A DNA stretch of 32,000 nt from Gammaproteobacteria bacterium. Its GTDB lineage: Bacteria > Pseudomonadota > Gammaproteobacteria > S012-40. The notes below the pieces were generated by a model. The model made no database searches, was not told where the DNA came from, and saw nothing but the letters and a program-made list of their open reading frames with translations. The DNA lies in assembly GCA_029881255.1 (NCBI GenBank), contig JAOUMY010000006.1, positions 136,013 through 168,012 of the forward strand, read 5' to 3'. The position numbers and the translations under genes were made by a program. Positions 4,453 to 14,608 of this stretch are shown in pieces (positions within the stretch are counted from its first letter, which is position 1; the number at the start of each line of letters is the position of its first letter).

Positions 4453-4941
4453 TTATGCTGCAGCAGCAATAGACGAAACGGTCGCCTTAGAAGCTTTACG
4501 ACGACGCGTAGTCTTCTTACGCTTGGACGCAGATTTCTTTTCCTTCTTCGCCCATGCAGCTTCCCATTTCTTCTCAAAAGCAGCCATAGCCTTCTTCTTG
4601 GCCGCTACTTTTGCTGCTTTGGCCTTCTTGGCCTTCATCAGTTCCTTACGCTTGGCAGCTGCCTCACGACGCTTGGCCGCAGCAGCACGCTTCTTAGCTA
4701 AAGCCGCCTTCTTCTTGACAGCAGCAGCTTTCTTCTTAGCAGAAGCCGCTTTCTTCTTAGCAGAAGCCGCAGCCTTCTTCTTTACAGAAGCTGCCTTCTT
4801 CTTTGCAGAAGCTGCTTTCTTAGAAGCTACCTTCTTAGAAGCCACCTTTTTAGAAGCTACCTTCTTCTTAGAAGCTACCTTCTTACGTGAAACCGCTTTT
4901 TTGGAAGCGGCCTTTTTCTTACCAGCTCTCTTCTTTGCCAT
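4453..4941 (-). CDS. Lys/Ala-rich histone H1-like (AlgP/Hc-like) nucleoid-associated protein
   Basis: 162 aa with 57 Lys and a comparable number of Ala, arranged as KKVAS / KKKAASA repeats. A strong SD (AAAAGGAG) lies 9 nt upstream of the ATG. The composition matches bacterial H1-like basic proteins. Confidence 0.6.
   Translation of the reverse strand: MAKKRAGKKKAASKKAVSRKKVASKKKVASKKVASKKVASKKAASAKKKAASVKKKAAASAKKKAASAKKKAAAVKKKAALAKKRAAAAKRREAAAKRKELMKAKKAKAAKVAAKKKAMAAFEKKWEAAWAKKEKKSASKRKKTTRRRKASKATVSSIAAAA
4657..4884 (-). repeat. in-frame tandem repeats inside the K/A-rich gene
   Basis: Three consecutive 15-nt units TTCTTAGAAGC(T/C)ACC at 4817-4861 and an 18-nt variant at 4862-4879. 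Degenerate ~24-27-nt GCAGAAGC(C/T)GC...TTCTTCTT units lie upstream of these. All unit lengths are multiples of 3. Confidence 0.8.
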
Positions 4942-5377: not shown

Positions 5378-7822
5378 CTATGCGCGTATACGGGCTTTTC
5401 TTAAGAATTGAACAGCTGGAAACAGCACAAGAAGGATCAAAAACGGGTCAATATTCTCGCCATTGCCCACGCTGCATCCACCAACCCCTGATCGCGACGT
5501 AGTGCGATCATACACAGAGATGGTCATTTCACCATAAAGCGCAACTGGCGACTCTGACGATGTACCTGAGAATCGAATTTTATGGTCCCCAGGTGGACCT
5601 GCATTACTCCAAGTTAAACGACGTGTCTCACTATCGAATGTAACACCTGGGGGGGCATATATCATCGACAGACTTCGAACACCCTGTCCATTAATCTGTC
5701 CCTGTATATTCGTCTCGACCACTCCACCGACTGTCACGTTGTAGTTAGGCGGTGTAATCCCAAGACCCGAAGCCATTTGATTATCGTCTTTAACGAAGAC
5801 CACCATCGTATCTTCCGCATAAGCACATGCGTTGTCGGATGCATGTAGCGTCAGTTCAAACAGCCCCGCAACTGGAAACTGGGCGGTTGAATTTACACTC
5901 CTGCTATCGGTGATAGTGACATCACTGAGCGTATTTGCATCCCACCAAAGAAGGCGAATGTCTCCATCTGGATCGTCTGCAAGGCCTTTAAGCGAAATCG
6001 TACTGCCTGCTTTTATCTCCATATCTGCTCCCGCGTTTACATTTGGCGCAGAATTGGGTTCATTTGCAGATAAGTGACAAACTCTCAGATCAAATTCGAT
6101 TGGCGTTTGGGCAACTTCGGCGCTTGGCTGCATATCAAATACGGCGATATGGAAATTCTCCGGCGTTGAAACGGGAAACCCCACGCGCTCCACCCCTGCA
6201 CCAGACGCTTTCACACGATCAGCCCCTCTAACGGTAAAATTTCCGTCGTTAACCGCATTATATTTCACGCTCGGTCGGTCATTTTTCGAGATTGCGAGGC
6301 CAATTTTTCCTTTTTGAGGCGGATAGGCAAGCTCAAATACGATACTGTCTGAATCAGTTCCCGAATTAGCTTGAAAATACTTCATCTCATCCTGCGGATT
6401 TTGTCTGAGTTGTGAGGAAATAAAGACACGCTCATTGAGTATGCCGGACTGCAAAGGAAGCCCTCGACGATAGTCAACGACCCCTCCCGCATACAATGCC
6501 GTCATATCCACATTAAGAGTAGTGGCCCGATGTCCACTAAAGATTGTTGCCTCGGCGGGAATCTCAACAGATGCACTTACGCCTTTATCAATTCGTGAAA
6601 TGAATCCGCTGGAGTTCACCGGCTTCAGAATTTCACCTTTGGAGGCAATATCTACCTCGATATTTGTAGCGCTTTCTCCGATATTTTCTATCAATAGCTC
6701 AATCACCCCGGTCTCTCCCGAGTCTGGAACACCGTTAACGCGCAGACTTTCCTGTTTCCATCTCCACGATTTGATCACCAACACAGGTTTGCGCTGATTG
6801 ATTGCCTGCATCGCCGTATACGCATGTAGATTTCCACCGCTCGCCAGGCGAGGGAAACTATCAGATACAGGACTGACGGTTGACATGATCAACGCACGCA
6901 TATCGACAGGCTGTAAATCCTCCACACCATCCAGCAAATCTACTGACTTTATTAGCGCGGCAACGCCACTGGTTACAGCTGTGGCTGCAGAGGTTCCCGA
7001 GATTGCGGAGTAGCTATCATTGTCGAGATCAATTGCAAAAATGTCTTCGCCAGGAGCCCCTATATCGACATGCGTGGCGCCATACTGCGACCAGGAAGTT
7101 AAACGCCCGCGTTGATCAACTGCTGCCACACTCAACATGTTCTGCATATCCAAATCTGCAGGGTACATGGGGAGAATGTCGTTACTGCTGTGAAAATTTC
7201 CGGCGGCTGCAATAAAGAGTGCATTGGCGTTGGCAAGCTGAGAAAGGTAACTCGCATCATGTAAGGGAAATGTGGCACCGCCATAACTCATATTGATGAT
7301 ATCCGCGCCATGACTCAGTGCATAATTGATTGCCTGTGCCTCAAGACTCGACGAATAAGAACAACCAATTCGCAAGGGCATAATTTTTACGTTCCAGGCG
7401 ATACCGCTCATGCCTTTGTTATTGTTGCCCACAGCACCAATTATTCCTGCCATCGCAGTACCGTGTGATGCCGGTGGGTTGCATCTATCTGCGGAGTCGG
7501 GTGAAGGATTGCTGTCTCCGTCTACAAAATCGAATCCTTCGACCAGATTACCCACCAGATCAGAATGGAAAATATCAATCGCGTCATCGATGACGGCGAC
7601 GATAATGGTTTCATCACCTGTAGAAACGTCCCAGGCCGCTTCCAATCCAATTTGAGACAATACGTCACGTTGATGGGTATATAGCGGGTCTCGAGGAATG
7701 AGCTGCGCCTGCGTGGAAAAAAGAGGATATTGTGGCTCAGACTGATGTAGTTGCGTAGAGGCTACGCTTGCGCACACGCAAATCAACGATGTGATTAACA
7801 GTTTCCGTCGCATGTCTCGCAT
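5378..7822 (-). CDS. secreted S8 subtilisin-like serine peptidase (paralogue B) with PKD-like and Ig-like domains and a C-terminal GGC-DP-hydrophobic-basic tail
   Basis: Signal peptide MRDMRRKLLITSLICVCASVAS. Catalytic triad contexts are AVIDDAID (Asp), HGTAMAG (His) and GTSAATAVTSG (Ser). It carries a NAGAD...DPDGD PKD-like repeat and an APPGVTFDSETRRLTWS putative Ig domain. The terminal 38 aa are RSGVGGCSVGNGENIDPFLILLVLFPAVQFLRKARIRA. Confidence 0.85.
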   Translation of the reverse strand: MRDMRRKLLITSLICVCASVASTQLHQSEPQYPLFSTQAQLIPRDPLYTHQRDVLSQIGLEAAWDVSTGDETIIVAVIDDAIDIFHSDLVGNLVEGFDFVDGDSNPSPDSADRCNPPASHGTAMAGIIGAVGNNNKGMSGIAWNVKIMPLRIGCSYSSSLEAQAINYALSHGADIINMSYGGATFPLHDASYLSQLANANALFIAAAGNFHSSNDILPMYPADLDMQNMLSVAAVDQRGRLTSWSQYGATHVDIGAPGEDIFAIDLDNDSYSAISGTSAATAVTSGVAALIKSVDLLDGVEDLQPVDMRALIMSTVSPVSDSFPRLASGGNLHAYTAMQAINQRKPVLVIKSWRWKQESLRVNGVPDSGETGVIELLIENIGESATNIEVDIASKGEILKPVNSSGFISRIDKGVSASVEIPAEATIFSGHRATTLNVDMTALYAGGVVDYRRGLPLQSGILNERVFISSQLRQNPQDEMKYFQANSGTDSDSIVFELAYPPQKGKIGLAISKNDRPSVKYNAVNDGNFTVRGADRVKASGAGVERVGFPVSTPENFHIAVFDMQPSAEVAQTPIEFDLRVCHLSANEPNSAPNVNAGADMEIKAGSTISLKGLADDPDGDIRLLWWDANTLSDVTITDSRSVNSTAQFPVAGLFELTLHASDNACAYAEDTMVVFVKDDNQMASGLGITPPNYNVTVGGVVETNIQGQINGQGVRSLSMIYAPPGVTFDSETRRLTWSNAGPPGDHKIRFSGTSSESPVALYGEMTISVYDRTTSRSGVGGCSVGNGENIDPFLILLVLFPAVQFLRKARIRA

Positions 7823-7880
7823 AATCTGACCAAGAATTTTCAGACGCAGTTTACTTGTTTGCGCCTGATCCAGGCCTTAA

Positions 7881-9992
7881 TTATGCCGCATAAGCTCTGC
7901 GTAGATAAACCATCGCCGCAAAAACCATTAACCACAACAATGGATCAAAACGTCCGCCAGCGAGTGTACAACCTCCTGAACGAGTGCCGGAAGCAAAACT
8001 GGCGGTGAGGGAATATTTCACGTTATTGTCTGCTTGTTCTCTTGGCGCTAACACGGCTATATAGTAGGTCGCATTCCCAGGGTTACGTATATTTATTTCA
8101 TCATTACCGTAAACACCGGAATATTTCACGCCAACGTCGGTTGCGCCCGCCAGCCCTAAATCGGTGTAGTAGAAGCCCGGGTAGGTACTCTTCGCCACCA
8201 AAAGATTCACATCGACACTGGTGCGTGTATCCGTGCGTTTGAGTGTCACTTTTAAATTATCCCTGCCACTAGGGACGTCGATGGTGTAGTAGTGTATGGC
8301 GTCAAGATGCATTCCTTCTCGTAGTAATTCGCCGTTGACCTTTACATCAGGGGTCAACACGCCCCAGTCCAGATTAAACTGTCGCGTATAATCACCGCGC
8401 AAGGTGTCTTTGGCCCAATTCACAGTGAGTACAAAAGGAAGCTCTGTGAAAGAGTCCGCCTCGAACTGTAATGAATCCACTTTGAAAACCAGTTCCTGCG
8501 TTTCTCCCTCGTTAAAAGGGCTGATGGTCACTTCCCGACTATAAATCATTAGCGGAGACGAAAGCGTGGCGACGACAATATCAGCGGAATTCCAAACATT
8601 TTCTAACGTTATTCGCAGTTGAAAGGTTTCCTCCTTATCAACAACTGAATTACCGTTTCCATATAGGCTGTCATCGACGACGATTTTGTTAATGACAATC
8701 ACAGGGTCCAGGCTTTCCATATTTGCGTAGGCCTGTACCGCATTAATTTTACCATCCGTCGCCGTACGACCTTTTGCGACCAATGGCGTAACGGAAGACA
8801 ACATTGCCCCCCGTAATTGGCGAAAGCCTGCGAGCGGATATGCCGTTTTTAGCAGCGCAGCAATACCACTGACCAAAGGCGCCGCGAAGGAAGATCCATA
8901 TTTGCTTGAGTCATAACTACCCGTGGCACTAGTCGTCACCCAACCTTGACCAGGGGCTGCAAAATCCACGGTCGTTTGTCCAAATTGCGCTTCGTGGGAA
9001 AGCTCACCCGCGGTGTCTGAAAATGCGACGGAAACGATATTGGGCAGATCCAAACCCGATGGATAGTCCGGTACCTTATCATTGCTAACAGGATCATTAC
9101 CTGCCGCGGTAATGACCAGGACATTCTGGTCCTGGATGGCCTGCAAGATATTTTCTTCGGCAATCGAATACATTGGACCGCCGTAGCTGAGATTGATAAT
9201 GCTAGCGCCTTTACTGATAGCGTATTCCACCGCTTGGATCTCAGCCGCCGTGTCATATAAACAACCGATGCGTATCGGTATGACTTTCACATTCCAAGCC
9301 GCACCCGCAATACCAATACCGTTGTTGGTTTGCGCACCCACCACGCCTGTCACAGAGGTGCCGTGAGCTTCAGAATATATTTTTCCTGTATCTGGGTCTT
9401 TACATGTGTCCGCTGGTGAGGGATCCGCATCGTTCTCGACAAAGTCCCAAGGAGAGACCATATTTCCACTCAAATCTTCGTGATGAATATTAATCGCATC
9501 ATCTATTACAGCGACTATCACGTTACCGCTTTCGCCCTTCACGATATCCCATAGTTGTTCAACCCCTGCCTGTACGAGGGGCGCTTTTTGACTGTCATAA
9601 ACACCCAAACCCTCAGCGGGAACCGCACGCGGGTAGCGTCTGTAATTCGGCTCAGCAAAGAGTACATTGGGATCGGCGCGCAGCGATTCGATGGTTTGTT
9701 CTACTGAGAGATCAGGAGGAAGCTGCCACTGTTCTAGTGGTAGTAATTGAAAACGGCCTTTGACTTGTATTCGCTTATCCTGACGCAGACGCGATTTTTG
9801 TTTCGCGGTGATACCTGTTTTGTACTGCACCAGTAACTCGCCGGGAACATATTGTTGAACTGAACCTGCCACCACCAGGGAGGGCAATCCAAAAAGAATG
9901 AGTATTACAGTTAGAAACAGGACAGGCATGATGAGCTTATTATTGCGGATATTGTCGGTTTTGGACACAGAGAATTCAGGAAAATTCCCCAT
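7881..9992 (-). CDS. secreted S8 subtilisin-like serine peptidase (paralogue A) with I9 propeptide, PPC-like domain and a C-terminal GGC-DP-hydrophobic-basic tail
   Basis: Hydrophobic signal/anchor PVLFLTVILILFGLPSLVVAGS and an I9-type prodomain (LLVQYK...LFAEPNY). Triad contexts are AVIDDAIN, HGTSVTG and GSSFAAPLVSG. A pre-peptidase C-terminal-like domain (YYTIDVP...YYIAV) precedes the tail RSGGCTLAGGRFDPLLWLMVFAAMVYLRRAYAA. The start is ambiguous: TTG 10040, ATG 9992 or ATG 9929. Confidence 0.85.
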   Translation of the reverse strand: MGNFPEFSVSKTDNIRNNKLIMPVLFLTVILILFGLPSLVVAGSVQQYVPGELLVQYKTGITAKQKSRLRQDKRIQVKGRFQLLPLEQWQLPPDLSVEQTIESLRADPNVLFAEPNYRRYPRAVPAEGLGVYDSQKAPLVQAGVEQLWDIVKGESGNVIVAVIDDAINIHHEDLSGNMVSPWDFVENDADPSPADTCKDPDTGKIYSEAHGTSVTGVVGAQTNNGIGIAGAAWNVKVIPIRIGCLYDTAAEIQAVEYAISKGASIINLSYGGPMYSIAEENILQAIQDQNVLVITAAGNDPVSNDKVPDYPSGLDLPNIVSVAFSDTAGELSHEAQFGQTTVDFAAPGQGWVTTSATGSYDSSKYGSSFAAPLVSGIAALLKTAYPLAGFRQLRGAMLSSVTPLVAKGRTATDGKINAVQAYANMESLDPVIVINKIVVDDSLYGNGNSVVDKEETFQLRITLENVWNSADIVVATLSSPLMIYSREVTISPFNEGETQELVFKVDSLQFEADSFTELPFVLTVNWAKDTLRGDYTRQFNLDWGVLTPDVKVNGELLREGMHLDAIHYYTIDVPSGRDNLKVTLKRTDTRTSVDVNLLVAKSTYPGFYYTDLGLAGATDVGVKYSGVYGNDEINIRNPGNATYYIAVLAPREQADNNVKYSLTASFASGTRSGGCTLAGGRFDPLLWLMVFAAMVYLRRAYAA

Positions 9993-10060
9993 GAAATATG
10001 ACAAAGCCCCGGATAGACAGGATCCGGGGCTTGTGTTCAAAAATTAAAATCGTTCCAGTC

Positions 10061-10930
10061 TTAGAATCGAACGCCAAGTTTTCCAGTATAGGTCAGCACG
10101 CCACCCGTCTGATCCATCTCCACTGCTACATTGATCAGGAAGATTTGCAGATTGGCGCCGATGAACCACTTGAACAGATTCCCCGATACATCTTTGATAA
10201 TTTTATCATTCAGATTAGGAAACTGAGCAGCAAACGTGTCCCGGATAGTTTGTGAAACATTTTGATCGACCAAATATTGGAGTGTCATATCTGACGAAGC
10301 TGTATAACGGTGAAAACCAAGACCCGCAAATGGTGTCACCTTCAAACCAATACCAAAGCCCTTGGAGATTGCGAGCTCTGCACCATATGAAGACATTTTC
10401 GCCAAATCTGTCCCACCATATGACCCCGCAAAATTGCTGAACACACCGCGCACAGCAACCGCAGGTAATAACACATTACCGCTGGCGATATTCACTTTTA
10501 ATTCACCGCCCAAATGCGAAATTGTGTTTGGCAACGATAGATAGGATACACCGATATCAACTGCCGGAATCAACGGAACAAATGGAATATCTACACCAAC
10601 GTGCGCGTGAAGTTTAGGAAATGGGAGATAGGCCATACCCTGCATCCACGATGGAAGTAAACCATTCAAAAATGATCCTGTTGGCAACTGCGTCGCCGAA
10701 ACTTCCAGGCCGGCGTCAAGCCCGACAGGCAAAATCCCATCTGCTGCAGAGGCCGCTGGAGAGTTTGACTTGTATGTAAATGCTGGCGCGATATCACCGG
10801 CTAAGGAACTGAAATTATCATTGATCACTGTTACGCCAGGACCAACTACATCGTCTACAATTGACGCATGTATTTGGGTACTCCCCGCCAGCAATGCCAC
10901 CGCACTAAAAACTCGAATTACCTGTCTCAT
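10061..10930 (-). CDS. outer-membrane beta-barrel protein, unknown family
   Basis: Signal peptide ending in IHAS. Repeated amphipathic Gly/aromatic-rich stretches are consistent with beta strands. The C-terminus is LGVRF, matching the terminal-Phe OMP signature. An SD (GGAG) lies 10 nt upstream of ATG 10930. Confidence 0.6.
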   Translation of the reverse strand: MRQVIRVFSAVALLAGSTQIHASIVDDVVGPGVTVINDNFSSLAGDIAPAFTYKSNSPAASAADGILPVGLDAGLEVSATQLPTGSFLNGLLPSWMQGMAYLPFPKLHAHVGVDIPFVPLIPAVDIGVSYLSLPNTISHLGGELKVNIASGNVLLPAVAVRGVFSNFAGSYGGTDLAKMSSYGAELAISKGFGIGLKVTPFAGLGFHRYTASSDMTLQYLVDQNVSQTIRDTFAAQFPNLNDKIIKDVSGNLFKWFIGANLQIFLINVAVEMDQTGGVLTYTGKLGVRF

Positions 10931-11005: not shown

Positions 11006-11366
11006 TGAACTGGTTCTCAAAAACTGTTTCCAAACATTAATTTGCAAAGCTTATGCACATTAAATGCCGTCCCCATGCCTTCCGGCATTGACAAGAATGA
11101 AACAAGCGGTCGTTTCAGCGGTCAGAGCACTCAGTATCCTCTGAGTAAGTCGGCTAATGGCAAAAGCGCTGCCCTCATTGATAAAAACATCCGCCTCGCT
11201 GATATCTCTGCACTCTCGCTTGCCAGGAGAATCATAGAGGAAAACGAGAGAACTTTCAGACCACGCCTAAGGCGAAATACGATAAAATTCAGTATAGAAA
11301 AGGTCTGGATAATAATTAGTAATGTATGCTTCCAGGGATTTTGGCGTTGGGGAAACGGGATCGGGA

Positions 11367-12956
11367 ATGAAATTACGAAATTTCACGACACTGATTGCAT
11401 GTTGTGTGCTATTACCCCTGAGCGCATGCTTTCATAACCCGGCCACCGGGCCTTCAGATAAATCCAACCCAACTGCAAACCCCTCGACGGCGGGCCTGCC
11501 GATTCTTACCATCACTTCGCTATCCAACCCCGATCTTAACGTACCCGAATCTCGCCCAACCATCAGTTTTAGAGCGAAGCTGTCGCAAATTGCCACTGAA
11601 GATATTCCATTCCGCTTTCGAATTACCGATGGCACGGCAACGCGACAAAACGACTTTTTTATCAATAACACTGGCCGCGACACTGGCGCATCGGTAGAAA
11701 CCATTCCCGAGGGAAGTGACTTTGCTGACTTTAGCGTCAATATACAAAATGACGACATTGACGAAATCAATGAACAATTCACCGTCGATTTTCAGTTACC
11801 CGAATTTGCCGATGGCCGAGGTCCACAGGTTGTGTTGGACGCACCTCCACTCAAAATCATCATAATCGATGACGATGACGCGCCTGTCGTCCAGATTGCC
11901 CCTGAAACTGGAAACCTGATTACCGTGCGTGAAAGTGTCGGGGTAGTAAAGTTAACGCTAACTATGCCATTGAAGCTGGCCAGTCAGGATGTGGAAATTC
12001 CCATTTTAGTGACCTACCCCAGTGTTGGCTTTGCTACACCTGGTAGCGACTTCGAAGTCCCGCAAACCATCATCTATCCAGCGCAAAATGGCGGTACTTC
12101 CCGTACGTTTGAATACAACTTATACATTAAAGACGATGCCTTGAAAGAAGAAAATGAGACGTTTTTTGTTTCCCTGCTGGATCCCCTGAATCATATCGCA
12201 TTTCTTGGATCAACAGGTTTATCCTCAGTAACAATCACCATACTAGATGATGATGCCATTGGTGGCATTAACGACACCCAGGTGACGACTTGCGCAAACT
12301 ACACGAATTACAATGTGGGTTGCTCGACAACAACTGACTTTCCCGGCCAGGATGGCGAATCAAACACGCCTATGAACATGCAGTTTGTCGACGAAGCCGG
12401 CTTCCCCACCCAAGACCCCAACCTCGCCGCCTGCGTGAAAGATCTCAACACTGGCCTGATGTGGGAAGTAAAAGCATCGGCCCCAGATGCGTCACAACGC
12501 AGTGCCAAATTTTTATATTCCTGGTACAACCCCTTGATCAATGCTAACGGAGGGCAAATGGGTTTCGAGGGCAACAGTTCGAGTTGTGGTGGATCGTTAG
12601 ACACCTGCAATACCAGTGCGTATATCGAATTTCTTAATAAAAATGATCGCTACTATGGAAATGGTCTATGTGGCTCCACCGACTGGCGTCTGCCCAAGAT
12701 TCATGAGTTGGTTTCTATTATGCGTTTCTCTCCACTCACTGATTTGTCAAAAGATGCAGTCATGTTCGATGAATCCATCTTCCTGGGAAAACAACCCGGA
12801 TATTATTGGACATCTAACCCAAAGGCCAATTTTTCACTCGAGGCATGGGCAGTCTTTATGGGTAAGACACCCGATTCATATGGAAAAGGGCGTATGTTTG
12901 TTGTGGGCCTGTTTAAAGACAAGACCGCGTTTATTCGCGCCGTAACTCATTACTGA
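11367..12956 (+). CDS. lipoprotein with two Calx-beta domains and a C-terminal DUF1566 (Lcl C-terminal-like) domain
   Basis: Lipoprotein signal MKLRNFTTLIACCVLLPLSAC with lipobox LSAC. Two Calx-beta-like units are present (ITDGTATRQNDF...NDDIDEINEQFTV and FATPGSDFEV...KDDALKEENETFFVSL). DUF1566 strings are NTGLMWEV, DWRLPKIHEL, YYWTSNP and IRAV. The track start at 11322 precedes the signal peptide. Confidence 0.7.
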   Translation: MKLRNFTTLIACCVLLPLSACFHNPATGPSDKSNPTANPSTAGLPILTITSLSNPDLNVPESRPTISFRAKLSQIATEDIPFRFRITDGTATRQNDFFINNTGRDTGASVETIPEGSDFADFSVNIQNDDIDEINEQFTVDFQLPEFADGRGPQVVLDAPPLKIIIIDDDDAPVVQIAPETGNLITVRESVGVVKLTLTMPLKLASQDVEIPILVTYPSVGFATPGSDFEVPQTIIYPAQNGGTSRTFEYNLYIKDDALKEENETFFVSLLDPLNHIAFLGSTGLSSVTITILDDDAIGGINDTQVTTCANYTNYNVGCSTTTDFPGQDGESNTPMNMQFVDEAGFPTQDPNLAACVKDLNTGLMWEVKASAPDASQRSAKFLYSWYNPLINANGGQMGFEGNSSSCGGSLDTCNTSAYIEFLNKNDRYYGNGLCGSTDWRLPKIHELVSIMRFSPLTDLSKDAVMFDESIFLGKQPGYYWTSNPKANFSLEAWAVFMGKTPDSYGKGRMFVVGLFKDKTAFIRAVTHY

Positions 12957-12966
12957 ACCTAATTTG

Positions 12967-13509
12967 ATGAAACATAGTTACTACAAATTCATTTCTCTCT
13001 TTCTGGCGCTGTCGCTATTCGTTGCGCCAGCCAGCGCACAGATTTGCGCGCTCGACACCACGCCACAAAGCATTTCTCCAACAAACTTTTCCATCAATCA
13101 GGGTGTCATCACTGACATCGCTTCAAGTTTAACTTGGCAACGTTGTTTTTACGGTCAGACCTGGAACGAGTCACTTCAACGGTGCCAGGGCAATCCGATC
13201 AAGCTCGACTGGAAACAGGCTCTCAATGCAGCGGCGTCGTTAAATGGGAACTGGCGCCTCCCTAATGTCAAAGAGATACTGACCATAGTCGACTACCAAT
13301 GCATGAGCCCCCCATTAAACCCCGAATTATTCCCGGAAGCGCCTTCGTCGCTCAGAAGTGGACTGTGGACATCAACACCCTTGCAAACCAATATTTCGAT
13401 AACCTCGCCGGTTCAATCGGCCTGGTTGATAGAACTCGGACACGGCTCCTTACAACACCACACGATGGACGATCCAAATTATTTACTACTCGTTAGGGAC
13501 GGTTTCTAG
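12967..13509 (+). CDS. secreted DUF1566 (Lcl C-terminal-like) domain protein
   Basis: Signal peptide ending in ASAQ. DUF1566 strings are LTWQRC, NWRLPNVKEILTIV, LWTSTPL and LLLVRDG. It starts 10 nt after the upstream gene. Confidence 0.65.
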   Translation: MKHSYYKFISLFLALSLFVAPASAQICALDTTPQSISPTNFSINQGVITDIASSLTWQRCFYGQTWNESLQRCQGNPIKLDWKQALNAAASLNGNWRLPNVKEILTIVDYQCMSPPLNPELFPEAPSSLRSGLWTSTPLQTNISITSPVQSAWLIELGHGSLQHHTMDDPNYLLLVRDGF

Positions 13510-13645: not shown

Positions 13646-14608
13646 ATGGCTGTTTGGCGTGGAGTCGCGTCAGCAATTTCGGCAATTTTTCTGCTATCGC
13701 CTTTTCCGCTGATTGCTGCAGGGCCACCTGTTCCCTTCGACGCTTGGTCTGTAAACCAGGGTAGTATTACGTCTTCATGCCCCGGCGGATCGAGTTGCCA
13801 GAACACCATCAGCGACCAAGGCATGATGCAACGGACGCTAATAGACTCTTCTGGTCAACGCTACTATCAAACCATCATCTACGATCAACAAAAAGACGGC
13901 ACACAACTCACAAGCGAAAGCTTTGTTAAGGGCAATAGCCAAGAGGGCGGAATTTCAACCCGACAGGTATTGAGCATCCCCGGCACAACCACCATAAATA
14001 GCGTCTCCGTATTAAATACCGGCTGGGCGAGCAATTCCGGGGCAGGGTCAGACATTCAAATACACCAGACACTCGAGGACCACAGCATCACCAAGGTCGG
14101 CTACATCGACAGTTTCACATTTGAAAGTTCGCAAGATGCAAACGAAAATGTCACCGGCTATTACCTCGATATTCGCCAGGAAGTAACGAATTCAACGCTC
14201 ATCGGTGGTGACGGCGTCACGACAACTGGTCAGGACAAGCACGTCTTCGTCACGCGTAAAACCTCCGGAAACTTCGTTACTTCCCCTGGTTCCGCTTCTC
14301 TCCCGAGATCAGGAGGTATGGGGGGCATGATGGATGGCAGTGGCCCACAAGGTGGTACTGTGTCTTGGCGTGTTGGAGATGAGATACAGGTAATTTGGAT
14401 AGGACAGGTTTGTGAAGGATGCCAGTCCGGAGGAATGATGGGTGGTGGCGGTGGTGGTGGCGGAATGATGAGCGGCGGTTCATCATTTTCTTACCAGGCC
14501 TATGACAATTTATCCGACTCCAGTGCAGGTATCGCCACGCGTTCGATATCGCAGACAGCCCCCATTAACTGGCAGACTGCCCCTTTTGGCGAGCAGCCAA
14601 AATTCTGA
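13646..14608 (+). CDS. secreted protein of unknown function with Gly/Met-rich tracts and CxxC
   Basis: Signal peptide AISAIFLLSPFPLIAAG. The Ser/Thr/Gly-rich body has no motif I recognise. The C-terminal third contains GGMGGMMDGSG, CEGC and GGMMGGGGGGGGMMSGG. Confidence 0.5.
   Translation: MAVWRGVASAISAIFLLSPFPLIAAGPPVPFDAWSVNQGSITSSCPGGSSCQNTISDQGMMQRTLIDSSGQRYYQTIIYDQQKDGTQLTSESFVKGNSQEGGISTRQVLSIPGTTTINSVSVLNTGWASNSGAGSDIQIHQTLEDHSITKVGYIDSFTFESSQDANENVTGYYLDIRQEVTNSTLIGGDGVTTTGQDKHVFVTRKTSGNFVTSPGSASLPRSGGMGGMMDGSGPQGGTVSWRVGDEIQVIWIGQVCEGCQSGGMMGGGGGGGGMMSGGSSFSYQAYDNLSDSSAGIATRSISQTAPINWQTAPFGEQPKF

What the first reader, a model, noticed from the sequence alone, without database searches (positions are those of the whole stretch)
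5378..7985. Both S8 proteases end in the same tripartite C-terminal tail, a candidate undescribed sorting/lipid-anchor signal
The last 38 aa of protease B (nt 5381-5494) read RSGVGGCSVGNGENIDPFLILLVLFPAVQFLRKARIRA. The last 33 aa of protease A (nt 7884-7982) read RSGGCTLAGGRFDPLLWLMVFAAMVYLRRAYAA. The domains just upstream of the tails differ between the two proteins (PPC in A, PKD/Ig in B), yet the tails align. The shared pattern is R-S-G-(x)-G-C-[ST]-[LV], then 5-6 residues, D-P, a 13-14-residue hydrophobic helix and an Arg/Lys cluster. Signature, transmembrane helix and basic end is the layout of processed C-terminal sorting signals such as PEP-CTERM, GlyGly-CTERM, MYXO-CTERM and LPXTG. GlyGly-CTERM is known on gammaproteobacterial secreted proteases, and MYXO-CTERM uses an invariant Gly-Cys. 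This tail combines GG and Cys, adds a spacer with an invariant Asp-Pro, and matches neither as I remember them. No rhombosortase, exosortase or CPBP-type protease is recognisable in this window.
Basis: partly seen in the sequence, partly recalled or inferred. Interest (0 to 1): 0.72.

Follow-up and report, generated by a model that had tools for sequence, protein, structure and literature searches.

The report
Known JDVT-CTERM sorting tails on proteases
The shared tail on the two subtilisin-like proteases is real, but it is the already described JDVT-CTERM surface-sorting signal rather than a new one; the only unusual point is that two such proteins sit side by side with no partner processing enzyme nearby.

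Summary
Two tandem minus-strand S8 protease genes (A 7881-9992, B 5378-7822) end in exactly the tails quoted. The claim that the tail is undescribed is not supported.

Both tails match the curated NCBIfam model NF033191, JDVT-CTERM (cutoff 27 bits):
- Tail A scores 36.8 bits alone and 30.3 bits as the whole protein.
- Tail B scores 29.0 bits alone but 21.6 bits as the whole protein, which is below cutoff.

They show every published hallmark (Haft 2023): a single invariant Gly-Cys, Asp-Pro 8-9 residues later, a Leu-rich helix and a basic end. A profile built from 20 orthologue tails retrieved 374 protein clusters, nearly all matched at the extreme C-terminus. Ten of them checked against Pfam carry unrelated surface or secreted domains or none. 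All 60 sampled tails hit NF033191.

The most likely mechanism, by analogy with MYXO-CTERM/MrtX, has four steps. The protein is exported by Sec, held in the inner membrane, modified on the Cys, and cleaved by the CPBP-family protease MrtJ, leaving a lipid-anchored surface protease.

Two features are atypical. There are two clients in tandem, and no mrtJ lies within the 52 kb seen of this contig or beside the protease in seven of the eight related loci; the eighth, L091, was checked only through its called genes. Canonical systems put mrtJ directly downstream of the client, which I reproduced in 6 of 10 MrtJ loci. I could not test whether the genome encodes MrtJ elsewhere.

The parts
7881..9992 (-). 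S8 protease A, including its stop codon. It has 703 aa from the start at 9992; NCBI aa from 9968, and the longest ORF starts at 10040. Layout: signal peptide, Fervidolysin-type N-prodomain, Peptidase_S8, PPC-like C-terminal domain, JDVT-CTERM tail. NCBI MDH5546550.1.
7884..7982 (-). JDVT-CTERM sorting domain of A: RSGGC-TLAGGRF-DP-LLWLMVFAAMVYL-RRAYAA. The Cys-to-Asp offset is 8.
   Evidence: NF033191 scores 36.8 bits for the tail alone and 30.3 bits for the whole protein, cutoff 27. Sequence; offset.
5378..7822 (-). S8 protease B, 814 aa, including its stop codon. Layout: signal peptide, Peptidase_S8, shared middle domain, K319L-like PKD, Ig-like region, JDVT-CTERM tail. NCBI MDH5546549.1.
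5381..5494 (-). JDVT-CTERM sorting domain of B: RSGVGGC-SVGNGENI-DP-FLILLVLFPAVQFL-RKARIRA. The Cys-to-Asp offset is 9.
   Evidence: NF033191 scores 29.0 bits for the tail alone and 21.6 bits for the whole protein, which is below the 27-bit cutoff. Sequence; offset.
10061..10930 (-). Conserved upstream neighbour: a 289-aa protein with a signal-peptide-like N-terminus and a C-terminal ...GVRF. It is a putative outer-membrane beta-barrel with only a weak DUF6588 match. Orthologues lie upstream of protease A in the five syntenic loci where I compared them.
   Evidence: Orthology E 1e-27 to 1e-36.
10004..10032 (-). Terminator-like hairpin (11-bp stem, 7 G-C pairs) between the putative OMP gene and protease A. 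A consensus match only.

Best explanation

Proposed pathway:
1. Each protease is exported through Sec by its N-terminal signal peptide. This is inferred from reading the sequence.
2. It is held in the inner membrane by the C-terminal helix, with the Arg/Lys cluster in the cytoplasm and the Gly-Cys at the periplasmic face (inferred).
3. The Cys is modified, probably lipidated (inferred by analogy).
4. A CPBP-family glutamic intramembrane protease of the myxosortase type, MrtJ, cuts just after the Cys and removes the helix. For JDVT-CTERM this rests on computational evidence only. It has been shown experimentally only for MYXO-CTERM/MrtX in Myxococcus xanthus.
5. The mature protease stays lipid-anchored and reaches the cell surface, probably through the type II secretion system (inferred).

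What is shown here is membership of the sorting-domain family and conservation of its signature. In this lineage the processing enzyme is not encoded beside its clients and must act in trans.
For: - NF033191 hits: A 30.3 bits whole protein and 36.8 bits tail alone; B 29.0 bits tail alone; cutoff 27. No GlyGly-CTERM, MYXO-CTERM (TIGR03901) or PEP-CTERM hit at E<=10.
- The signature matches the published description. There is one Cys. The Cys-to-Asp offset is 9 in B and 8 in A, and the modal offset among orthologues is 9.
- 20 of the 21 Cys-bearing tails in the alignment (the two window tails plus 19 homologue tails) hit NF033191.
- A profile of the protease tails found 374 cluster representatives at E<=1e-3 among 1.84 billion proteins, nearly all at the extreme C-terminus.
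- Among 135 top tails, the offset is 9 in 85 and 10 in 29, and 131 have a single Cys.
- 60 of 60 sampled tails hit NF033191, best E 1e-16.
- Ten of those carriers were checked against Pfam. Seven carry unrelated surface or secreted domains (M4 peptidase, DUF11, PKD, beta-propeller, Ig, cadherin, HYR) and three had no Pfam hit.
- The canonical client-mrtJ pair was reproduced. L009 has a JDVT-tailed choice-of-anchor-F protein followed by a 163-aa CPBP that scores 120.7 bits on NF033192 (cutoff 75), next to gspD and gspE.
- 6 of 10 MrtJ loci have a JDVT-tailed ORF ending immediately upstream. In L013, a Nitrospira MAG, that ORF is an S8 protease homologous to A and B.
- The mechanistic precedent is MrtX, which cleaves MYXO-CTERM in a Cys-dependent way, also in E. 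coli (PMC11980579).
Against: - No MrtJ-like ORF was found in six-frame searches of the window plus its two extensions, 52 kb of one contig.
- None lies next to the orthologous proteases in L002, L003, L004, L006, L007, L008 or L090. In L091 the called genes carry no CPBP Pfam hit, but I did not search it in six frames.
- Haft reports adjacency in 16 of 17 cases and typically one client per genome. Here there are two clients in tandem.
- The whole-protein score of B, 21.6 bits, is below the curated cutoff.
- Five orthologues (P0002, P0003, P0004, P0008, P0022) keep the helix and basic end but have lost the Cys. The tail can therefore persist as a plain anchor.
- Nobody has shown cleavage or lipidation for any JDVT-CTERM protein.
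Confidence: 0.8

Rival explanations
1. The tail is a plain, unprocessed C-terminal membrane anchor that the two paralogues inherited. It tethers the proteases to the inner membrane, and neither cleavage nor lipidation occurs.
For: A and B are paralogues, 34% identical over 512 aa. No mrtJ lies within 52 kb or beside the orthologues. Some orthologues lack the Cys yet keep the helix and basic end.
Against: G, C and D are invariant and P is at least 90% conserved across 20 orthologue tails whose other columns vary. The same signature ends hundreds of protein clusters, and the carriers checked have unrelated domains. It sits directly upstream of mrtJ in canonical loci. A simple anchor would not conserve Gly-Cys and Asp-Pro.
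Confidence: 0.1
2. The JDVT-type tail is processed here by an enzyme other than MrtJ. One candidate is the generic CPBP protease about 29 kb upstream on the same contig (L005:1443-2210). Another is a rhombosortase acting on the Gly-Gly.
For: A 255-aa PF02517 protein with intact EExxxR, FxxxH and HxxxD motifs lies on the same strand, about 7.3 kb beyond the right end of the window. More distant S8 relatives carry poly-Gly tails. The only GlyGly-CTERM-type hits in that 32-tail set (TIGR03501, SVAGG and MprA_tail; five member matches at E<=0.01) presumably come from these tails, although the output does not say which members matched. Sorting signals therefore seem to have been exchanged in this protease family.
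Against: That CPBP scores 21.1 bits on MrtJ (cutoff 75) and 21.8 bits on Mrt_core (cutoff 100). Its best match is the ABC-permease/CPBP type at 63.9 bits. It lacks the MrtJ-invariant LLFGYFRDRH block. The window tails give no GlyGly-CTERM hit at E<=10. CPBP genes are common, so one within 30 kb is weak evidence.
Confidence: 0.08
3. The tail is a previously undescribed sorting signal distinct from all curated C-terminal sorting domains.
For: B's whole-protein score is slightly below the NF033191 cutoff.
Against: Curated-model hits for both tails. A profile made from these tails retrieves only tails that hit NF033191, 60 of 60 sampled. The published description matches feature by feature.
Confidence: 0.02

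Closest known systems
JDVT-CTERM sorting domain (NCBIfam NF033191) with its CPBP-family protease MrtJ (NF033192); Haft 2023, bioRxiv 10.1101/2023.06.07.544157
   Same: Position at the extreme C-terminus. Tripartite layout. A single invariant Cys preceded by Gly. Asp-Pro 8-9 residues after the Cys. A Leu-rich helix and an Arg/Lys cluster. HMM scores above cutoff (for B, as an isolated tail only). Secreted or surface-type carrier proteins.
   Different: Two clients in tandem instead of the usual one per genome. No mrtJ adjacent or within 52 kb, against adjacency in 16 of 17 published cases. B is below cutoff as a whole protein.
MYXO-CTERM with myxosortase MrtX (TIGR03901; Guo, Haft and Wall, mBio 2025, PMC11980579)
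   Same: Tripartite Cys-containing tail, and the same presumed chemistry: Cys modification, then cleavage by a CPBP glutamic intramembrane protease, then surface display through the type II secretion system. There, several clients share one enzyme encoded elsewhere, which is the arrangement this locus most resembles.
   Different: MYXO-CTERM has no charged or Pro residues in the helix region and often has a second Cys (GCGC). The window tails have the Asp-Pro and one Cys, and give no TIGR03901 hit at E<=10. The lineage is Gammaproteobacteria, not Myxococcota.
GlyGly-CTERM with rhombosortase (TIGR03501), e.g. the Vibrio cholerae VesB protease
   Same: A tripartite tail on secreted gammaproteobacterial serine proteases. 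Distant members of this same S8 family carry poly-Gly tails of this type.
   Different: GlyGly-CTERM has no Cys and is processed by a rhomboid serine protease. The window tails do not hit that model.

Membership tests
JDVT-CTERM (NF033191) | Score at or above the curated cutoff of 27 bits | tested here: met
   A scores 30.3 bits as a whole protein and 36.8 bits as a tail. B scores 29.0 bits as a tail but 21.6 bits as a whole protein, so it is borderline.
JDVT-CTERM (NF033191) | Tripartite domain at the extreme C-terminus: signature, hydrophobic helix, Arg/Lys cluster | tested here: met
JDVT-CTERM (NF033191) | Exactly one Cys, invariant, in the signature | tested here: met
   One Cys in each tail. 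The Cys is invariant in 20 orthologue tails. 131 of 135 related tails have a single Cys.
JDVT-CTERM (NF033191) | Near-invariant Asp-Pro about nine residues after the Cys | tested here: met
   The offset is 9 in B and 8 in A, and the family mode is 9. Definition taken.
JDVT-CTERM (NF033191) | The carrier is an exported protein with an N-terminal signal peptide | tested here: inconclusive
   Both N-termini look like signal peptides on reading, but no predictor was available.
JDVT-CTERM / MrtJ system | Cognate MrtJ (NF033192) encoded next to the client (16 of 17 published cases) | tested here: not met
   No CPBP in the window. No MrtJ-like ORF in six-frame searches of 52 kb of this contig or of seven related protease loci. 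L091 was checked only through its called genes.
JDVT-CTERM / MrtJ system | MrtJ present somewhere in the same genome | not testable with these tools
   Only 52 kb of the 232.8-kb contig could be read. The MrtJ homologue list was saturated by close relatives of the seed, and the genome scan was cut off at 600 stretches.
JDVT-CTERM / MrtJ system | Typically a single client per genome | tested here: not met
   There are two tandem clients here, and also in L004 and L090.
MYXO-CTERM (TIGR03901) | HMM match; no charged or Pro residues in the helix region; often a GCGC motif | tested here: not met
   No TIGR03901 hit at E<=10 for either tail. The only myxo-type hits are whole-protein B to the myxosortase-dependent M36 peptidase model NF038112 (43.1 bits, cutoff 1500) and tail A to MXAN_2561_fam (12.6 bits). 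The Asp-Pro is present and there is only one Cys.
GlyGly-CTERM (TIGR03501) / rhombosortase | HMM match; Gly-Gly signature without Cys | tested here: not met
   No hit at E<=10.
MrtJ (NF033192), applied to the CPBP protein at L005:1443-2210 | Score at or above 75 bits and the conserved LLFGYFRDRH block | tested here: not met
   21.1 bits. The block is absent (one search compared).

The most novel reading that the evidence does not exclude
In this clade of uncultured Gammaproteobacteria the JDVT-CTERM signal may have become uncoupled from a dedicated, adjacent MrtJ. One possibility is that a distant MrtJ works as a housekeeping enzyme for several clients, as myxosortase does. Another is that an enzyme outside the NF033192 family processes the tails. 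In either case the conserved upstream DUF6588-like putative outer-membrane barrel might be the surface partner of the two lipid-anchored proteases.
Probability: 0.2. Interest if true: 0.35.

Novelty: already known. Interest (0 to 1): 0.15.

Why it matters
The finding mainly improves annotation. Two MAG proteins deposited only as 'S8 family serine peptidase' are predicted cell-surface proteases that carry a JDVT-CTERM anchor signal.

There is some modest wider value:
- The data suggest that JDVT-CTERM is far more widespread in metagenomes than the 26 of 5,846 genomes first reported: 374 clusters at 50% identity.
- In at least one clade the clients occur in tandem and away from mrtJ. This blurs the published contrast between 'one client, adjacent enzyme' for JDVT and 'many clients, remote enzyme' for MYXO.

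Neither point opens a new class of system.

Tried and rejected
- Exact look-up of the NCBI form of protease A (P0001) found nothing on record, so I could not retrieve the 232.8-kb NCBI contig.
- The supplement of the Haft preprint, which holds the species and client lists, is not held as text.
- The tail profile run against the word-indexed protein database returned only 18 short fragments. It still led to one canonical JDVT-mrtJ locus.
- The MrtJ homologue search listed only the best 120 of 512 hits, all close relatives of the seed. A possible MrtJ from this MAG could not be seen.
None of its 80 loci belongs to the assemblies of the syntenic relatives, GCA_975955525.1 and GCA_031416175.1.
- I considered the small ORF downstream of protease B (4453-4941) as a hidden sorting enzyme. 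It is a Lys/Ala-rich histone-H1-like protein.
- I considered the CPBP gene beyond the right end of the window as MrtJ. It fails the model.
- I tested whether the upstream putative OMP is homologous to the barrel domains fused after internal JDVT motifs in P0121, P0182 and P0262. It is not detectably so.
Full report
**Observation**

The window carries two tandem genes on the minus strand: 5378-7822 (protease B, 814 aa) and 7881-10040 at its longest (protease A). Gene callers give A as 703 aa from 9992 or 695 aa from 9968. Translating exactly the coordinates in the finding gives the two quoted tails letter for letter.

Both proteins are Peptidase_S8. A has a Fervidolysin-type N-prodomain. B has a K319L-like PKD domain and a weak Ig match. 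They are paralogues, 34% identical over 512 aa. B has about 250 extra residues before its tail, and the tails still align at 46% identity over 35 aa. Two qualifications apply: the genes are on the minus strand, and A's 'PPC' domain is seen only through its orthologues.

**Identity of the tail**

I scanned both proteins and both isolated tails against NCBIfam. The only sorting-domain model matched was NF033191, JDVT-CTERM, cutoff 27 bits:

| Query | Score (bits) | E-value |
|---|---|---|
| A, whole protein | 30.3 | 2.7e-7 |
| A, tail alone | 36.8 | 2.7e-9 |
| B, tail alone | 29.0 | 7.2e-7 |
| B, whole protein | 21.6 (below cutoff) | 1.5e-4 |

No GlyGly-CTERM, PEP-CTERM or MYXO-CTERM (TIGR03901) hit appeared at E<=10.

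The paper that describes this domain defines it by five features (Haft, bioRxiv 10.1101/2023.06.07.544157):
- the tripartite layout;
- a single invariant Cys;
- a nearly invariant Asp-Pro nine residues after the Cys;
- a Leu-rich helix;
- an Arg-rich end.

The Cys-to-Asp offset is 9 in B and 8 in A, and 9 is the mode among orthologues.

**Is it modular or just inherited?**

Of the 21 Cys-bearing tails in the alignment (the two window tails plus 19 homologue tails), 20 hit NF033191. In an alignment of 20 such tails, G, C and D are invariant and P is at least 90% conserved, while mean column identity is 35%.

A profile of these tails, searched against 1.84 billion cluster representatives, found 374 proteins at E<=1e-3. 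Nearly all matched at the extreme C-terminus, in proteins of 42 to 3,575 aa. Among 135 top tails the offset is 9 in 85 and 10 in 29, and 131 have one Cys. All 60 tails sampled hit NF033191, best E 1e-16. Ten carriers were checked against Pfam. Seven hold M4 metallopeptidase, DUF11, PKD, beta-propeller, Ig-like, cadherin-like or HYR domains, and three had no hit. The tail is a mobile sorting module, not a quirk of these paralogues, and it belongs to the curated family.

**The partner enzyme**

Haft predicts that the CPBP-family glutamic intramembrane protease MrtJ (NF033192) processes JDVT-CTERM. He reports it adjacent to the client in 16 of 17 cases, with typically one client per genome.

I reproduced the canonical arrangement. 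In L009 a choice-of-anchor-F protein with a JDVT tail is followed directly by a 163-aa CPBP that scores 120.7 bits on NF033192 (cutoff 75), beside gspD and gspE. Its homologues include Vibrio proteins named MrtJ. Of the ten MrtJ loci (L009 plus nine, L010-L018, from the genome collection), six have a JDVT-tailed ORF ending just upstream. One of these, in a Nitrospira MAG (L013), is an S8 protease homologous to A and B.

The window locus differs:
- No CPBP, rhombosortase or exosortase is in the 32 kb.
- Six-frame searches with an MrtJ sequence and an MrtJ profile found nothing in the window plus its two extensions, 52 kb of Logan contig SRR7132271_1567.
- Orthologous protease loci were recovered from seven other assemblies and metagenomes, as eight loci; L002 and L003 are near-identical copies from two sources. 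None shows a nearby CPBP. L002-L004 and L006-L008 were searched in six frames, while L090 and L091 were checked only through the Pfam annotation of their called genes.
- The five loci L002, L004, L006, L007 and L090 keep the gene order putative OMP, protease A, (protease B), Lys/Ala-rich protein, then moeA-mobB-mobA on the opposite strand.

A 255-aa CPBP gene lies about 7.3 kb beyond the right end of the window (L005:1443-2210). It has intact catalytic motifs but scores only 21.1 bits on MrtJ. Its best match is the ABC-permease/CPBP type, and it lacks the MrtJ-invariant LLFGYFRDRH block. I treat it as a generic paralogue.

I could not determine whether the genome encodes MrtJ elsewhere. The contig could only be read to 10 kb beyond window genes. 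The MrtJ homologue list was saturated by close relatives of the seed.

**Mechanism**

The best-supported model follows the MYXO-CTERM/MrtX work (PMC11980579). There MrtX cleaves the tail in a Cys-dependent way, including in E. coli. [quoted passage not shown]

Applied to this locus, A and B would become lipid-anchored surface proteases. Membership of the signal family and conservation of the signature are shown here. Cleavage, lipidation and the export route are inferred, and for JDVT-CTERM they have never been tested experimentally.

In the window tails only 13-14 hydrophobic residues separate the Asp-Pro from the basic cluster. The membrane span must therefore start near the Cys, which places the Asp-Pro inside the bilayer. 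This fits recognition by an intramembrane protease.

**Rivals**

- A plain inherited anchor would fit the paralogy, the missing mrtJ and the orthologues that lost the Cys. It does not explain the invariant Gly-Cys and Asp-Pro, or the same signature on the unrelated proteins checked.
- Processing by another enzyme, either the nearby generic CPBP or a rhombosortase, cannot be excluded. It has only circumstantial support.
- A new signal is refuted.

**Verdict**

The tail is the known JDVT-CTERM domain, so novelty is 'already known' and interest is low. The residual curiosity is that this clade has two tandem clients and no mrtJ in cis.

Noticed in passing
L005:1443-2210 (same contig, equivalent to about window 39302-40069, minus strand): A 255-aa CPBP/Rce1-like intramembrane protease with EExxxR, FxxxH and HxxxD motifs lies about 29 kb upstream of protease A. 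It scores 21.1 bits on MrtJ (cutoff 75) and its best match is the ABC-permease/CPBP type at 63.9 bits.
   Followed up: yes
window 10061-10930 (-); orthologues at L002:3267-3995, L004:9099-9833, L006:9104-9838, L007:6555-7292, L090:2828-3568: A putative outer-membrane beta-barrel (N-terminus that reads as a signal peptide, C-terminal G-x-R-F, weak DUF6588 match) is conserved upstream of protease A in the five syntenic loci compared. It may be a functional partner of the surface proteases. No structure prediction was run.
   Followed up: partly
L002:4133-9988, L003:4133-9988, L090:3756-9580: In some relatives a JetA-JetB-JetC (Wadjet-type defence) cassette is inserted between the putative OMP gene and protease A. 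L002 and L003 also lack protease B.
   Followed up: no
window 4453-4941 (-); L004:15606-16172; L002:12663-13220: The conserved gene downstream of the proteases encodes a 162-188-aa Lys/Ala-rich, histone-H1-like repeat protein (AKKKAAA repeats) with no Pfam or NCBIfam hit.
   Followed up: partly
Homologues P0002, P0003, P0004, P0008, P0022: These protease-A orthologues keep the hydrophobic helix and basic end, and some keep D/N-P, but have lost the Cys. This looks like decay of the sorting signal into a plain anchor in some lineages.
   Followed up: partly
Homologues P0035-P0038, P0041, P0050, P0071: More distant members of the same S8 family end in poly-Gly tails of the rhombosortase GlyGly-CTERM type instead of JDVT-CTERM. 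Sorting signals appear to have been swapped within one protease family.
   Followed up: partly
P0121 (res. 1230-1261 of 1475), P0182 (208-243 of 607), P0262 (48-80 of 256): These proteins have internal JDVT-CTERM motifs followed by a second signal-like segment and what reads like an outer-membrane barrel or OmpA-like domain. This parallels the internal MYXO-CTERM plus barrel of M. xanthus MXAN_5598. The barrels are not detectably homologous to the window's putative OMP.
   Followed up: partly
window 11322-12956 (+) and 12964-13509 (+): Two adjacent Lcl_C-domain proteins, the first also with Calx-beta repeats, are transcribed divergently from the protease operon. They are conserved in the syntenic loci L002, L003, L004, L007 and L090.
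   Followed up: no
window 13646-14608 (+): A 320-aa protein whose N-terminus reads like a signal peptide has Gly/Met-rich low-complexity runs (GGMGGMMDG, GGMMGGGGGGGGMMSGG) and no family hit.
   Followed up: no
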